Positions 6,752 through 21,700 of a stretch of 27,410 nucleotides of DNA are shown here, in pieces. Numbering within the stretch: the stretch's first letter is position 1; each line of letters opens with the position of its first letter. The position numbers are program-made. The DNA is from Archangium sp. (GTDB taxonomy: Bacteria; Myxococcota; Myxococcia; Myxococcales; Myxococcaceae). The stretch lies in the NCBI GenBank assembly GCA_031367385.1, contig JANLPS010000390.1, positions 1 to 27,410 of the forward strand, given 5' to 3'.

Positions 6752-9700
6752 AAGTCGTCAGTGCCGTCTCCGGTGAGGGCGCCGTTGACCAGCACGATGT
6801 TCTCGGGCTTCACGTCGCGGTGCACCACGCCGACCTCGTGGGCCGCGGCGAGCGCTTGCGCGACCTGCCGGGTGATTCGCACGATGCGCGAGATGGGCAG
6901 CGGGCCGGCCTTGATGACCTCTTTGAGGCTCGGGCCGCGCAGGTACTCCATCACGCACCAGACGTGGCCGGCTTTGCGGTCGTCGATGAAGTCGTGAATC
7001 TCGACGATGTGGGGGTGCTTCACCAGGTTGACCGCGCGGGCCTCCTGCAGAAAACGGGTGACGTGCACGTCGATGGTGGCGAGCTCTTTGCGCAGCACTT
7101 TGATCGCGACCTTGCGATCGAGCGTGAGGTGCCGGGCGAGATAGACCTGGCCCATGCCGCCCTGGCCGATCTGTTCGAGCAGCTCGTAGCTGCCCAAGAC
7201 CGTGGCGTCGTCGGGCAAGAGCGACCCCTGCCGAATGTGCTCGATCGGCGCGGGGATGTTGGGCGTCGACTGGTGATCAGCCTCGGAGAGCACGTGGAGC
7301 AACGCCTCGCGAACCGCTCGCACTGATTGAAAGCGGTCGCTGCGCTCTTTGGCCAGGCAGAGCCCGATGATCGGCGCCATGCGCTCGAACCCCGGCGGCA
7401 CCCACGGCACCGACTGCGAGAGGTGCAGCAGGCGGGTCGTCTCGAGTGAATCACCGTGAAAAGGGGCACGGCCACTGATCATCTCGAAGAGCAGCACGCC
7501 CAGGCCGTAGACATCGGAGAGCGCGTCGACCCGCCGGCCGCGAACCCGCTCGGGCGAGAGGTATTCGGGCGCGACCAGCACCATCGAGGTCGGAGTCTTG
7601 AGCGAGCGGGTGGTGCGAAAGAGCAACAGCCCCATGTCGACGAGCTTGGGTACCGGAAGGTCTGACGGCCCGGTGAGGTAGACGTTCGACGGGCGCAGGT
7701 TGCCGTGAAAGATGCCGCGGTCGTGCAGGTAGTTGAGGGCCTCGCAGAGGCTGACGCCGATGCGGGCGGTCTCGCGAATGCCGAGGGTGCCGCGCTTGAG
7801 GCGCTCTCCGAGGTGGGGGCCTGCGAGCGGCTCGGTCACCACGAAGAGGCGGCCGTCGTTTTGACAGCCAGTGACGGTGCGCCTGACCAGGCTCGGGTGG
7901 CTCAGCTTCTGACGTTCGCGCGCCTCATCGAGAAAGCGCGCGTAGAGGTCGATGTCTTCGCTCAGGGCAGGGCGGGTGACTTCGACGAGCACGTGGTCAG
8001 CACCATTGCGGGCACTGAAAATTTCGGCGGCGGTGCCGTCGGCCAACTTCTCGATCATCTGCAGGTTCGCCACGGGGTGTGAACCGTTACACACCGGGGC
8101 CTCCGCGACATGGGCGAGCGAAGGCGCAAGTGTGCGTCACGGTACGGGTTTTCGACCATGGTGCTGCAAAGTTCTTCGGGCCGCGCTTTTCGACCTGGCC
8201 TCCCGTGCGGTTGGTCTCGAGGAGGCACTCATGCTGAGGGCTCTGCAGATTTTGACCGCAAAAGAAGTCGCGAGGGCGGTGGTCGTGGTTTGGGTACTGG
8301 GCGTCAATGCGTGGCGCGTGCTCGCAGTGATTCGAAGGGAGCGCGCGCGTCACCGCGATCAGGTGCTCACCGCAAGAGGGCCACTGGGCGACGATGTGAA
8401 TCGTCGCGCCGAAGCGAGGTCGCGACCTCGGCTGTCGTCGGAGCTGGAGGCAAACGGCCTTCGCGTCGGCCCGACTCGCAAGAGAAGGGGCTGATGGAGA
8501 CCGTTGGCCTGATTGTCGGTGCCCTCGTGCTTCTGTGGGCCACCGCTTCGGTCGCTTGGCGCTTCGTCCGCTCGGTTCAGAGATGGTTCTCTCGCAACAC
8601 GGGGCTGCCTTCTCGAATGAGGGCAGCTGGTTCGATCAGGGCTGCGCTGGGCGAGCTCCTCGATTCGGCCTCGGCGAGCGGCCCCGTCGTCGAGGTCGGC
8701 GAAGGAGAAGATGCGGCTGACGACGATTCACCCTCTGAGACGTCAGACGCGAGCACCGAGGGCTTTCACCAAGACGACTCCCAGTGAGGCGGCTTCGATG
8801 CGACGAAAGGGCTCCTGCCCATGAGCCCAATCGGCGCGTGGGAGCGCGATCTTCTTCAGCCCGGCTGCGCGGCAATGGCTGGCGTGATCACCGCGGCTCG
8901 ACTGGCCGCTCGTAGATTCGGTACGTCTTGATCTTTCGAGCGCCGGTCGCCTGAATCGTTCGGTTGATCAGCGTGTCGTCTTCGAGCACCCAGCCCATTT
9001 CGCCCGACGCATACCCGAGCTTTTGCGCCGCTTGAAACGTCTCGAGCGCCAGCAACGCGTCGATGCCACGCCGGCGAAACCCGTCTTTGATGCCGAACAA
9101 CAACACGCGCAGGCGCTCGATTTTTCGCGCTGCCCACAGCAGCTTGGCCAACCCGAAGGGGAAGAGGTAGCCGCCAGCCGCCTTCAACGCGACGTTCGTA
9201 TCGGGCAGCGTGATGCCGAACGCGACGGCTTCACCGTCAACCTCGGCGATGAATGAGAGCTCAGGCCGCAGCAAAATGACCGGTCGCACGCGGTGCACCA
9301 GATCATCGAACTCGCTGTCGCTCATCGGCGCGAACCCGAAGCCCGGCCGCAACATGCCTTCGTAGATGCCCTTGATTCGTCGAATGTCGGCCTCGGGGTT
9401 GCTCGTGTCGAGCCGTCGCACCCGAACATGGCCCGTGGCTTTGACCCGCTCGGCCAGGCGCGTCACCTTGTCGGGCAGACCCTGGGCGGCGACGAGCTCC
9501 CAGCTCCAGAGGTCTTTCATTTTCACGAAGCCATTCGCCTCGACCAGGCGCGAATAGTACTTCGGGTTGTACGGCATCATCATCGACGGAGGGCGATCGA
9601 ACCCGTCGATCAGCAGCCCGCAGTCGTGGTGAAAGGCGAGGTTGATCGGCCCCACCAGCCGCTGCATGCCGGCCCGGCGCACCCACTCGGTGGCGCGCTC

Positions 9701-18700: not shown

Positions 18701-21700
18701 CCTGACACCACCTGGCTCGAGGTCTCGACGACCTCAGCGAAGCGAGCTGGCCGCGCTGGCGCCATCGAGGTCACCCTGAGCCAGGGGCAGGCCCTCTCGT
18801 ACAAGGGCGTCGTGACGTTGGGCGTTTCGAGCTCGGTGCCCGCAGTCAAAGCCATCGTCGCGGGCGGCGATTTGCCGATGTCGCTGAGCGATTTCTACAG
18901 CGGCTTCACCTTTCACGGGCCGCGCTTGCAGGGCATCACCCGCATCGACGCGGTCTCTGATGTCGGCGTGGTCGGGTGGGTCAAAGGCAGCCGCCCCTCG
19001 GAGTGGATCAAAGAGCCCCTGCGCTCGGAATGGACCGTCGACCCGTTGATCATCGATGCCTCGTTTCAGCTCGCTGGGTACTGGGCCTGGGTCAAGCAGC
19101 AGCGCGCCGGTTTCCCCCTCGCGCTGGGCACCTTCGTGCAGCTCAAGCCGTTCGGCATGGGCCCCGTGAAGTGCACGGTGAACTTCGAGACCTCGAGCGA
19201 CGATTTCTTCTCGGGCACCCTGGTTTGGCACGACCAGAAGGGCGACGTGTTGGCGTACATGACCGGCACCAAGGCCGAGTTCAAGAAGCGCGACCCGCAG
19301 TTCGCTCCGGCGAAGGTGCCCAACGAAGCGATTGCTCCAGCGACCGGCCCGGTGCCCGACGAAGCCACGTGGAACCCGGCGAAGTTCCCCGAGTATGAAG
19401 ACTTACAGGAGCGGCTGCAGATGGCCGAGGCCTTCGGTCTTCGCAACCCGTACTTCTCGGTGCACGAGGCGATTTGCGGTGACACCACCGTCGTCAACGG
19501 CAAGGAGATGATCAACTTCTCGTCGTACAATTACGTCGGCAACTCGGGCAACCCGGTGGTCTCGAAGGCGGCCCAAGACGCGATCACCAAGTACGGCACC
19601 TCGGTGTCGGCGAGCCGCGTGGCCTCGGGTGAGAAGCCGCTGACCCGTGAGCTCGAGGTCGCGTTGGCCGACTTCTTCGGCACCGAAGATTCAATCGTGA
19701 TGGTCTCGGGTCACGCCACCAACGTCAGCGTCATCGGCCACATCGTCGGCGCGGGTGACCTCATCGTTCACGACGCCCTGGCGCACGACTCGATCATCGG
19801 TGGCGCCAAGCTCAGCGGTGCCAAACGTCGCCCTTTTCCTCACAATGACTGGGAGGCGCTCGACCGCATGCTCACCAACCTCCGGCCGCATTACCGCCGA
19901 GTGTTGATCTGCATCGAAGGCACCTACTCGATGGACGGCGACATACCCGAGCTGCCGAGGTTCATCGAGGTGAAGAAGAAGCACCACGCGTTGCTGCTGG
20001 TCGATGAGGCACACTCGGCGGGTACGGTGGGCAAGACCGGCCGCGGCATCGGCGAGTACTACAAGGTCAATCGCGCTGACGTCGACCTGTGGGGCGGCAC
20101 GTTGTCGAAGTCGTTCGCGAGCTGCGGCGGGTACATCGCTGGCAGCAAGGCGCTGGTCGAGTACCTCAAGTATACGACCCCTGGGTTCGTCTACTCGGTG
20201 GGCATCTCGCCGCCCAATGCGGCCGCGGCGCTGGCCTCGACCCAAGAGATGATCGCTCACCCCGAGCGCGTCACCAAATGCCAAGAGAACGCGAAGTATT
20301 TTCTCGAGCTGTTGCACTCGCGGGGCATCAACACCGGCATGTCGAAAGACTCGGCGGTGGTGCCGGCGATCATCGGCAACTCGGTGCTCTGCCTGCAGCT
20401 GAGCGACGCGCTCAAGACCCGCGGCATCAACGTGCAGCCGATTCTGTACCCGGCGGTCGAAGAAGATCAGGCGCGGTTGCGCTTCTTTCTCTCGTCGCTG
20501 CACAAGAAAGAACAGCTGCAGAAGACCGCTGATGTTCTCAAAGAAGAGCTCGAGCGGTTGACCCGAGAGATGAACGCTGAAGCCGTTGCTTGATCAACGA
20601 AGTGCGTGAAGGAAGCTTTCAAATGACCTCGACTCAAGAAGAAGTTGAAATCGGTTACGACATCAGCAACGAGTTTTTTCGCCTCTGGCTCGACGAGCGC
20701 ATGCACTACACCAGCGCGGTGTACGACGCCGAGCACACCACGCTCGAGCAGGCGCAGCGCAACAAGAGCAAGTGGCTGGCTGATTTCGCCGAGGTGACTC
20801 CCGAATCGCTGGTGCTCGACATCGGCTGCGGCTGGGGCGCCAACCTTGAATACCTGGCCCTCGAGCGAAAAGTGCAACGCGCGCATGGCATTACGTTGTC
20901 GCGTTCACAGGCCGATGAAATTACGGCTCGCAAGCTGCCCGGCGTGACGATGTGGGTCGAAGACTACAAAGACTTCGCTCCGAAAGAAAAATACGACGCG
21001 CTGATCAGCATCGAGATGATCGACCACCTGGTCTCGCCCGCGCAGCAGCAGCAGGGCCTCGCGATTCAGATCTACCGCGACTACTTCAACAAGACCGCCA
21101 AGTGGGTCAAGCCCGGTGCCTGCTTCGGGTTTCAGGCCATCTTGCGCGACCGCGTGCCCCGCACCCGCGCCGATTTGGAAGATTTGAAGTTCACCGCAGA
21201 CGTCATCTTCCCCGGTGGGCTCAACCCGCGGCTCGAAGAGCTCGTCGCCGCGTGTGGCCAGTCATGGGAGATCATTCAGCTCAACACCCGCCGGGTCGAT
21301 TACGGCAAGACCACCGCTGAGTGGCTGCGCCGCTACCGCATGAACAAAGACAAGATCATGGCCTCGGGCTGGGGCGATCGCAGAATGAGCAATGGCGAGA
21401 CCGTGTGGGTCAACTACGAGCGGTACCTGGCGACCTGCGTGAAGGCCTTCGCCAACCACTGGTCGAGTGACGTGCAGATGAAGCTGCGCCTCAAAGACTG
21501 ATTTTCGAACCGTGGGTCTGCGACCGCGCGAGAGCGCCTGAGGGGCCCCCAACTGAACCTCGAGGTTCAGATTTCTGAACCCTGGGGTTTCAGAGTGCTC
21601 CCGCGCACGCCGACGCCCTCTTCGAGCTGGGTGAGCGCTGCGGCGAGATCGAGCTCGACCCTCTCCGGACTGTATCGAGCTTCAAGCCAGCTCAACCCAC

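What a model noticed while it worked through the whole genome (the two positions that open the first line are those of the whole stretch)
8888..21501. PKS-serine palmitoyltransferase megasynthase in a bacterial ceramide operon
A 2232-aa KS-AT-ACP-KR-DH module ends in a serine-palmitoyltransferase-type domain on the same chain and sits with a fatty acyl-ACP ligase, ACP, two bCerS ceramide synthases and a CMAS methyltransferase. We think it is a one-chain sphingoid-base assembly line whose KR/DH step hands SPT a 2-enoyl chain, giving delta4-unsaturated sphingosine with no desaturase. A fused PKS-SPT wired to bCerS as a ceramide route across Myxococcota was not found in print.
Evidence so far: Domains of g01677 and bCerS hits for g01673 and g01674 (34-36% to Caulobacter bCerS, E about 1e-65); the KR Tyr and the DH His and Asp motifs are visible. 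The C-terminal 403 aa best match plant and human SPT2 and Sphingobacterium SPT (E 1e-61 to 1e-58; call 63). The DH-SPT region matches 73 of 301 phylum genomes at E under 1e-100, mostly in open frames of about 2300 aa. In 12 relative loci the ligase is adjacent in 12, ACP in 10, CMAS in 5, bCerS in 3 and a ceramide-reductase homolog in 3. Searches 60, 61, 68 and 193 were run; PMC12134224 passages show a two-gene PKS + SPT with no mention of fusion or myxobacteria.
(Added by a program. Inside this text positions count along the whole contig: contig position 1 is position 1 of the stretch shown here. "Call 12" and the like, gene names such as g00115 and contig names such as C1 are that model's own, and its searches are not shown. 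The text may have been shortened before it was handed on; [...] marks where a part breaks off. The agent that wrote the report below was given it as the finding of a first reader that could run no searches.)

Follow-up and report, generated by a model that had tools for sequence, protein, structure and literature searches.

The report
Polyketide synthase replaces sphingolipid starter enzyme
In many uncultured myxobacteria a large polyketide synthase fused to a serine-palmitoyltransferase-like domain is found where the normal first enzyme of ceramide synthesis is missing, and it likely builds an unsaturated, possibly methyl-branched, sphingolipid backbone by an untested route.

Summary
The 2232-aa ORF is KS-AT-ACP-KR-DH-AOS with no enoyl reductase, and its catalytic residues are conserved in 57 aligned sequences. 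It is not one operon: the two bCerS-like genes are divergent, as cerS is from aasR-acpR-spt in E. coli. The AOS domain groups with SgaB/RkpG-type enzymes (PfSgaB is a proven serine enzyme), not with canonical SPT or KBL.

New evidence:
- Of 139 bCerS-bearing Myxococcales genomes, 94 have canonical SPT only, 39 the fusion only, 2 both and 4 neither.
- The methyltransferase occurs only in fusion genomes (25 of 201).
- An acyl-ACP desaturase is inserted beside the free ACP in some relatives.
- A conserved 16-bp palindrome lies before both transcription units.

Best reading: it replaces SPT in ceramide synthesis (about 0.75) and likely gives a 4E-unsaturated, tailored base (about 0.5). Against: no clear ceramide reductase in this genome, five fusion genomes lack bCerS, and cycle number and products are untested. 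PKS-derived sphingolipids and assembly-line AOS domains are in print, so this is a new variant. The scan noted related fusions on other DNA before (e1-773090, e1-2456662).

The parts
8888..10081 (-). bCerS-like N-acyltransferase, paralog 1 (397 aa)
   Evidence: 45% to paralog 2; 30-33% to E. coli YghO and a Sphingomonas homolog from spt/lptFG loci; only this pair in the genome
10086..11288 (-). bCerS-like N-acyltransferase, paralog 2 (400 aa, GNAT)
   Evidence: PF00583; 35-36% to YghO and the Sphingomonas homolog; 51-59% to the gene after canonical spt in L084-L087
11330..11345 (.). 16-bp palindrome GAGCAA-N4-TTGCTC, copy 1, 41 nt before the bCerS start; likely a regulator site
   Evidence: 2 matches in window, 0.13 expected; conserved in relatives
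11451..11466 (.). palindrome copy 2 (one mismatch), 214 nt before the FAAL start
11681..13573 (+). fatty acyl-AMP ligase, AasR-like (630 aa)
   Evidence: best NCBIfam hit PRK09192, 512 bits, below its cut-off of 600; 35% to E. coli AasR-type ligase
13615..13875 (+). free-standing ACP (86 aa); likely the starter carrier
   Evidence: PF00550 E 1e-10; pI 4.7
13895..20593 (+). PKS-AOS fusion, 2232 aa: KS-AT-ACP-KR-DH-AOS, no ER, no thioesterase
   Evidence: one ORF in 41 of 46 named Myxococcales loci, the other 5 cut by contig ends
13934..15304 (+). KS domain (Cys213, His348, His391)
   Evidence: 57 of 57 conserved
15575..16462 (+). AT domain (Ser653, HAFH motif; malonyl-type is a recalled label)
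16955..17230 (+). internal ACP (Ser1063)
   Evidence: PF00550 above cut-off; Ser 57 of 57
17345..18445 (+). KR domain (Tyr1461; Asp1408 at the third place of the LDD-type motif)
18500..19294 (+). double-hotdog DH domain (His1556, Asp1721)
19382..20590 (+). alpha-oxoamine synthase domain of the SgaB/RkpG clade (Ser1907, His1964, Lys2072, Arg2196)
20590..21501 (+). short CMAS-family methyltransferase; start probably the ATG at 20623 (292 aa)
   Evidence: PF02353 E 2e-49; aligns from the N-terminus of mycolate methyltransferases; found in 25 of 201 genomes, all fusion carriers

Best explanation
The fused KS-AT-ACP-KR-DH-AOS protein has no enoyl reductase, occurs where canonical SPT is missing in bCerS-bearing myxobacteria, and likely makes their sphingoid base by extending a fatty acid to a 2E-enoyl chain and releasing it with serine, which would give a 4E-unsaturated 3-keto base for the bCerS-like enzymes to acylate. 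Steps: (1) The FAAL likely loads a fatty acid on the free ACP, as AasR/AcpR do in Caulobacter (inferred from homology and layout). (2) The methyltransferase, and in some relatives an acyl-ACP desaturase, likely tailor that ACP-bound starter with a methyl branch or cyclopropane at a double bond (inferred). (3) KS and AT add malonyl, KR reduces, DH dehydrates (domains and residues shown; one cycle assumed). (4) The AOS domain would offload the chain by decarboxylative condensation with L-serine. Acyl C2=C3 becomes base C4=C5 (clade shown; serine and enoyl acceptance inferred). (5) bCerS would N-acylate the base, and a reductase, not identified in this genome, would reduce the 3-keto group. My odds: 0.75 that it stands in for SPT in ceramide synthesis, 0.5 for that plus the 4E product.
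For: Complementary distribution. Among 201 Myxococcales genomes, the 139 with bCerS split 94 SPT only, 39 fusion only, 2 both, 4 neither; of the 62 without bCerS, 57 have neither. In the window's family, 123 genomes split 91 SPT only, 28 fusion only, 2 both, 2 neither (my count). Canonical SPT lies directly before bCerS in 4 of 4 loci examined. In named fusion loci a bCerS gene lies upstream of the FAAL in 22 of 33 loci with enough sequence. The E. coli locus has the same divergent layout, yghO versus ligase-reductase-ACP-spt. The AOS domain forms one clade (SH-aLRT 100, quick tree) with a Pseudomonas PKS-adjacent AOS (53%) and the S. meliloti RkpG-type AOS (43.5%), against 30-37% to SPT, KBL and BioF. 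Its active-site motifs closely match the printed PfSgaB sequence (by eye), and PfSgaB is serine-specific. Ser1907 sits at the KBL Val79 site. BioF and KBL are encoded elsewhere. DH His and Asp and KR Tyr are conserved in 57 of 57. No ER Pfam appears in 120 listed full-length homologs. A PfaD-type ER is found in only 10 of 46 fusion genomes. The palindrome precedes both units.
Against: No biochemistry exists, and every named carrier I saw with this architecture is a MAG. The AOS passes no curated SPT cut-off, and BioF scores highest (316 bits, against 280 for the best SPT model). Ser at the Val79 site is shared with alanine-using AONS. Five fusion genomes lack bCerS at E 1e-50. Four of them belong to family f4, and three of those carry a separate 44-45% SPT-like gene that my first SPT query missed. 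G000, G077, G196 and G071 have no close relative of the locus-linked reductase (30-34% only). G000 has a PfaD-type ER domain in another PKS and a Pfa-type synthase, and 10 membrane desaturases, one 37% identical to a desaturase beside Sphingomonas bCerS. The methyltransferase was found in only 25 of 46 fusion genomes. Related genomes are not independent samples.
Confidence: 0.5

Rival explanations
1. It replaces SPT but acts as a chain-length tool: a trans-acting enoyl reductase (PfaD-, FabI- or FabV-type) completes each cycle and the base is saturated or very long, as with SgaAB.
For: The KS-AT-ACP-KR-DH order is that of PfaA, which scores 600 bits; that PfaA uses a separate ER is recalled. 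G000 has a PfaD-type domain. SgaAB makes saturated C24-C28 sphinganines.
Against: PfaD was found in only 10 of 46 fusion genomes and in none of the loci examined. The SgaA/RkpA-type PKSs examined carry their own ER. FabI/FabV-type reductases were not searched.
Confidence: 0.17
2. It iterates without reduction, like enediyne PKSE, and releases a conjugated polyene chain with serine, giving a 4,6-diene or longer polyene ceramide.
For: The ER-less KS-AT-ACP-KR-DH order is that of iterative polyene synthases (recalled). Nothing tested here limits the number of cycles.
Against: A dedicated FAAL and ACP lie upstream in 39 of 46 named loci, which points to a long preformed starter. The protein substitutes for a housekeeping lipid enzyme.
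Confidence: 0.13
3. It makes a non-ceramide amino-ketone lipid (alanine- or glycine-derived, a capsule anchor or a secondary metabolite), and the bCerS link is incidental.
For: The same AOS clade occurs in capsule loci, in ACP-AOS-SnoaL proteins beside an intact SPT and in f4 genomes without bCerS. BioF is the best-scoring model.
Against: 39 of 43 genomes with bCerS but no canonical SPT carry the fusion. The palindrome follows bCerS in L122, where another gene separates it from the FAAL.
Confidence: 0.12
4. FAAL-ACP feeds the AOS domain directly, as in planctomycete FAAL-ACP-AOS proteins, and the PKS module supplies a tailored N-acyl chain to one of the two bCerS paralogs.
For: FAAL-ACP-AOS fusions of the same clade exist without any PKS. 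All 13 fusion genomes of the window's family in the order sample have two or more bCerS genes.
Against: There is no thioesterase, and the AOS is the natural release domain. Fusion carriers of family f8 have a single bCerS, and some SPT-only genera also have two.
Confidence: 0.08

Closest known systems
PfSgaA/SgaB/SgaC of Pseudomonas fluorescens MYb115 (PMC12134224); RkpA/RkpG-type loci
   Same: Type I PKS plus an AOS of the same clade. Active-site motifs closely match PfSgaB. Sphingoid product expected.
   Different: Here the two are one chain, the domain order is KS-AT-ACP-KR-DH and there is no ER. The SgaA-like and RkpA-like PKSs examined are KS-AT-DH-ER-KR-ACP. This system has a FAAL-ACP starter, bCerS-like partners and a methyltransferase, and no SgaC-type SDR. 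It replaces the host SPT instead of adding lipids in a capsule-type locus.
Rhodobacterial ceramide pathway AasR-AcpR-Spt-bCerS-CerR (PMC9386255, PMC11087976, PMC11324152)
   Same: FAAL, dedicated ACP, AOS and bCerS-like acyltransferase, with cerS in a separate transcription unit. The divergent layout matches E. coli.
   Different: The AOS comes from another clade (33% to E. coli SPT) and has a whole PKS module in front of it. No clear CerR was found in G000. There are two bCerS paralogs.
AOS domains embedded in assembly lines (PMC3870968 Table 2: A-CP-AOS, A-CP-KS-AT-AOS, KR-CP-AOS, PigH)
   Same: A C-terminal AOS fused to carrier, ligase or PKS domains, noted there as closest to SPT.
   Different: No KS-AT-ACP-KR-DH-AOS layout, myxobacterial AOS entry or ceramide link in the non-redundant table I read. 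The full set of 206 was not read.
Mycolic-acid methyltransferases (MmaA1/Hma type) and fungal ceramide C9-methyltransferase (PMC9325734)
   Same: CMAS family. Short form without the N-terminal domain of phospholipid cyclopropane synthases. Glu142 and Asp145 align with Glu and Asp of MmaA1.
   Different: Only distant similarity (E about 1e-23 to 1e-18). Gln replaces the conserved His. No transmembrane part like the 525-aa fungal enzyme. Substrate untested.

Membership tests
Serine palmitoyltransferase (function) | PLP fold-I AOS with His, Asp, Lys and Arg catalytic residues | tested here: met
   His1964, Lys2072 and Arg2196 conserved; DEAH motif
Serine palmitoyltransferase (function) | Uses L-serine and a long acyl thioester | not testable with these tools
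   Indirect only: clade and motifs of PfSgaB, Ser at the Val79 site
Canonical bacterial SPT families (NF047599, NF047600, NF047603) | Score above curated cut-off or place in the SPT clade | tested here: not met
   214-280 bits against cut-offs of 500-670; separate clade
SgaB/RkpG AOS clade | Groups with the PKS-adjacent AOS of Pseudomonas and Sinorhizobium | tested here: met
   SH-aLRT 100, quick tree without bootstrap; PfSgaB itself was not in the tree
SgaAB system | Two genes; fully reducing PKS with ER; SDR reductase in the cluster | tested here: not met
   One chain, no ER; no SgaC-like gene in the window. The ER was seen in SgaA-like and RkpA-like proteins, not in SgaA itself
KBL / BioF | Val79 site (KBL); stand-alone gene passing its cut-off | tested here: not met
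   Ser1907; both housekeeping genes lie elsewhere and pass their cut-offs
Bacterial ceramide pathway (Spt-bCerS-CerR) | bCerS homolog present | tested here: met
   reference was YghO and a Sphingomonas homolog, not Caulobacter bCerS
Bacterial ceramide pathway (Spt-bCerS-CerR) | CerR ortholog present | tested here: inconclusive
   Best G000 hit is 27-34% to three CerR-like queries; CerR-like genes lie in the locus in f8, L042 and L141
Bacterial ceramide pathway (Spt-bCerS-CerR) | Ceramide detected in cells | not testable with these tools
   No lipid data; no cultured carrier identified
PUFA synthase / PfaA | Tandem ACPs with PfaB/C/D partners in the locus | tested here: not met
   Single ACP, 600 bits against cut-off 1010; no partners in the loci
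Cyclopropane fatty acid synthase (phospholipid-acting) | N-terminal lipid-binding domain and Glu/His/Tyr bicarbonate ligands (residue roles recalled) | tested here: not met
   Alignment starts at residue ~110 of CFA synthases; Asp145 and Gln182 replace Glu and His

The most novel reading that the evidence does not exclude
Uncultured myxobacteria build sphingoid bases on an assembly line: a FAAL-loaded fatty acid is desaturated and methyl-branched on a free ACP, extended once to a 2E-enoyl chain and released with serine. This gives a methyl-branched sphingadienine akin to the fungal 9-methyl-4,8-sphingadienine, with the 4E bond made without oxygen. It would be a convergent route to a eukaryote-type lipid that has displaced ordinary SPT in several families.
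Probability: 0.25. Interest if true: 0.85.

Novelty: new variant of a known kind. Interest (0 to 1): 0.66.

Why it matters
If correct, a large group of environmental myxobacteria makes ceramides without a recognisable SPT gene. The proteins are mostly labelled 8-amino-7-oxononanoate synthase or aminotransferase, so SPT-based surveys could misplace them. It would also show a PKS module recruited into primary membrane-lipid synthesis, and a desaturase-free route to sphingosine-type 4E bases. That could serve as a biocatalyst and give a lipid marker for these uncultured groups. The cluster is about 12.6 kb and can be tested by complementing a delta-spt strain.

Tried and rejected
- Second SPT locus on contig C379: it is BioF beside bioB, next to an Ftp-like type III PKS cluster.
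- Divergent AOS genes on C280 and C46: weak SPT scores, long branches, no lipid context. Not excluded biochemically.
- Assembly artefact: rejected; the fusion is one ORF in 41 complete named loci.
- C428 desaturase as a conserved delta-4 partner: not found at E 1e-30 in 3 of 3 other fusion carriers or 2 SPT genomes; no positive control in that call.
- Wider regulon for the palindrome in G000: 44 one-mismatch sites. Of the 13 examined, only C13:964 looked intergenic besides the window, with no clear target. The motif is absent before canonical spt (0 of 4).
- Nostoc Npun_R3567, which makes no sphingolipid (PMC8895605, passages): its clade was not tested, so it is not used either way.
- PDB search for bCerS gave only chance hits; blastn in E. 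coli genomes gave none.
- No cultured carrier was found among 120 listed homologs.
- The careful tree did not finish; only the quick tree is cited.
- No complex prediction was run.
- The Stankeviciute 2022 preprint was not held.

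
Full report
OBSERVATION. The window holds a 2232-aa ORF at 13895-20593(+). Pfam places KS, AT, KR, DH and a C-terminal PLP aminotransferase-fold domain, with no enoyl-reductase family. The internal ACP passes PF00550 when scanned alone. An AlphaFold model of the DH (50-row alignment, pLDDT 95) matches PKS double-hotdog dehydratases. In 57 aligned full-length sequences, all of these are invariant: KS Cys/His/His, AT Ser and HAFH, ACP Ser, KR Tyr, DH His and Asp, AOS His and Lys. 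That set includes the window and about four records fetched twice. The FAAL, free ACP and CMAS methyltransferase flank the PKS on the plus strand. The two bCerS-like genes are on the minus strand, so the locus is two divergent units, not one operon.

THE AOS DOMAIN. PDB scores cannot separate SPT from KBL, and BioF is the top NCBIfam model, with no cut-off passed. Context and phylogeny do better. BioF (beside bioB) and KBL are separate genes that pass their cut-offs. The domain is 53% identical to an AOS next to a fully reducing PKS and an SDR on a Pseudomonas plasmid, and 43.5% to the S. meliloti RkpG-type AOS, against 30-37% to canonical SPT, KBL and BioF. A quick IQ-TREE tree of 37 rows puts these in one clade (SH-aLRT 100, no bootstrap). 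The PfSgaB sequence in the supplement of PMC12134224 matches the window's active-site motifs closely by eye; for example both have GTSVSASR, VSGHATN and QPILYPAV. [quoted passage not shown] The residue at KBL Val79 is Ser1907, as in SPT and AONS. This argues against glycine but does not separate serine from alanine.

DISTRIBUTION. In four relatives the 36-37% AOS hit lies directly before a bCerS-like gene; where scanned, an epimerase-type reductase follows and an MmpL gene is adjacent, matching the M. xanthus spt context described in bioRxiv 10.64898/2026.04.12.717747 (passage). I took this gene as canonical SPT and searched the same 201 Myxococcales genomes (completeness at least 80%) for the fusion, SPT and bCerS. 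Of 139 genomes with bCerS, 94 have SPT only, 39 the fusion only, 2 both and 4 neither. Of 62 without bCerS, 57 have neither and 5 have the fusion. I counted as fusion the 46 genomes whose match covers the DH and AOS, or is at least 56% identical in a long or contig-cut frame. Several are cut by contig ends, so fusion is not shown for each. I left out four other AOS fusions (G013, G042, G113, G146). In the phylum sample the window's family has 91 SPT only, 28 fusion only, 2 both and 2 neither of 123 (my count). Families f8, f10 and f14 carry the fusion in 7 of 8, 3 of 3 and 18 of 19 genomes and SPT in none. bCerS was found in 7 of 10 fusion genomes spot-checked outside the window's family, one of them weakly. 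Against: the four f4 carriers lack bCerS, and three of them hold a 44-45% SPT-like gene that my first, C-terminally biased SPT query missed. Kin are not independent, so I give no p-value. G154, flagged unpublished, is one of the 'neither' genomes in these tallies.

LAYOUT AND A SHARED SITE. An E. coli record shows yghO divergent from ligase-reductase-ACP-spt, and PMC11324152 (passage) states that cerS always lies in a different operon from aasR, cerR, acpR and spt. The window's FAAL is 35% identical to that ligase, and the bCerS-like pair 30-36% to YghO and a Sphingomonas homolog. The window therefore resembles the known layout with a PKS module set in front of the AOS. In named fusion loci, bCerS lies upstream in 22 of 33 with enough sequence. 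The intergenic region holds two copies of GAGCAA-N4-TTGCTC, at 11330 and 11451 (0.13 expected by chance). The motif, allowing one mismatch, lies within 500 nt before the FAAL in 32 of 37 named Myxococcales loci and 7 of 8 G-handle loci of the window's family. It is in 0 of 23 loci from other families and before 0 of 4 canonical spt genes. In L122 a reductase gene separates bCerS from the FAAL and each keeps a site. I infer co-regulation; the regulator is unknown.

TAILORING ENZYMES. The methyltransferase follows the PKS in 43 of 46 named loci. Orthologs occur in 25 of 201 genomes, all fusion carriers, sometimes on other contigs. In f8 and several more distant families it sits between the FAAL and the free ACP. 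It has the short form of mycolate methyltransferases. It shares Glu and Asp with MmaA1 where CmaA2 and the CFA synthase aligned have Gly and Glu. Forty-nine of 56 orthologs keep this pair, 7 from f8 have Cys and Glu, and all have Gln at the His site. That MmaA1 makes a methyl-branched trans olefin is recalled. An acyl-ACP desaturase (PF03405) lies between ACP and PKS in 7 of 46 named loci and in several distant ones; L144 reads FAAL-MT-ACP-desaturase-PKS. G000 lacks it. I infer that both enzymes act on the ACP-bound starter.

THE DELTA-4 QUESTION. A 2E-enoyl chain condensed with serine gives a 4E-3-keto base; this follows from SPT chemistry. In favour: the invariant DH dyad, no ER family in 120 listed homologs, and a PfaD-type ER in only 10 of 46 carriers. 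The SgaA-like, RkpA-like and a fused Planktothrix PKS-AOS all carry an ER. Against or open: G000 has a PfaD-type domain and a Pfa-type synthase; FabI/FabV were not tested; the cycle number is unknown; and 10 membrane desaturases are present. No clear CerR was found in G000 or in three of four relatives checked, although CerR-like genes lie in most f8 loci.

WHAT IS KNOWN. PMC12134224 (abstract, first two of four parts of the results, discussion, supplement file 11, and a term search of 12 of 20 supplementary files) describes two-gene SgaAB. The term search found no myxobacterial names; the eight unread files may include the table of 6,101 clusters. PMC3870968 (passages and section 7) lists AOS domains fused to ligase, carrier and PKS domains, but not this layout. 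PMC9386255, PMC11087976, PMC11324152, PMC11334938, PMC11906848, PMC8708032, PMC9325734, PMC8895605 and PMC11765627 were read as passages only. Ten searches (listings) showed no paper on a PKS-SPT fusion linked to bCerS or on myxobacterial carriers. The library lacks most subscription papers, and bioRxiv supplements are closed. Two earlier scan notes describe related fusions on other DNA; a sequence look-up found no note on this protein family.

VERDICT. This is a real, conserved and widespread system, best read as a non-orthologous replacement of SPT by an ER-less PKS-AOS fusion with starter-tailoring enzymes. It works like SgaAB joined to the AasR-AcpR-bCerS route, but it fails membership tests for both canonical SPT and SgaAB. 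New variant of a known kind; interest 0.66.

Noticed in passing
window 11330-11345 and 11451-11466: Conserved palindrome GAGCAA-N4-TTGCTC before both transcription units in Myxococcaceae-type loci; regulator unknown.
   Followed up: partly
L050-L083, e.g. L051:7751-11260; L147:6939-9830: The same AOS clade is fused as FAAL-ACP-AOS (about 1000-1250 aa) in many Planctomycetota and in Myxococcota family f18.
   Followed up: partly
L106:5569-13167 (Planktothrix agardhii plasmid): A fully reducing KS-AT-DH-ER-KR-ACP-AOS fusion, like SgaA and SgaB in one chain, among FAAL and glycosyltransferase genes in a cultured cyanobacterium.
   Followed up: partly
L107:6344-11182 (Streptomyces anthocyanicus plasmid); L053:6644-11263 (Skermania): KS-AT-ACP-AOS fusions without KR or DH whose AOS groups with the myxobacterial ones; MmpL gene adjacent in L107.
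   Followed up: partly
L097:6433-8484; L098:5980-8250; L099:6210-11546: ACP-AOS-SnoaL and AOS-SnoaL proteins, and a PKS with two tandem AOS-like domains, in genomes that keep canonical SPT.
   Followed up: no
L141:4957-10440 (G205): Shorter variant (1827 aa) with no AT match, with bCerS-like and reductase genes divergent and a desaturase nearby.
   Followed up: no
L088:6700-9596 (G138): A second, unclassified AOS beside a fatty-acid hydroxylase-like gene in an SPT-bearing genome.
   Followed up: no
G000:C403:1252-5223 (L128): PKS with a PfaD-type ER domain in the same frame, N-terminal to KS-AT; PfaD matches in frames of about 2700 aa occur in G180, G190 and G198.
   Followed up: no
G000:C141 (L116) and G000:C533 (L115): Pfa-type PUFA synthase genes and a second multi-KS cluster in the same genome.
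   Followed up: no
window 5271-6098: PlsC-type acyltransferase about 2.8 kb from the bCerS pair; not conserved beside the cluster in relatives.
   Followed up: partly
window about 21369-21503; L049:12851-13597; L094:14681-15355: A 45-residue stretch at the end of the methyltransferase gene matches the start of an ORF that is a full PPTase gene in L049; L094 also has a PPTase right after the PKS. No intact PPTase ORF was seen in the window.
   Followed up: no
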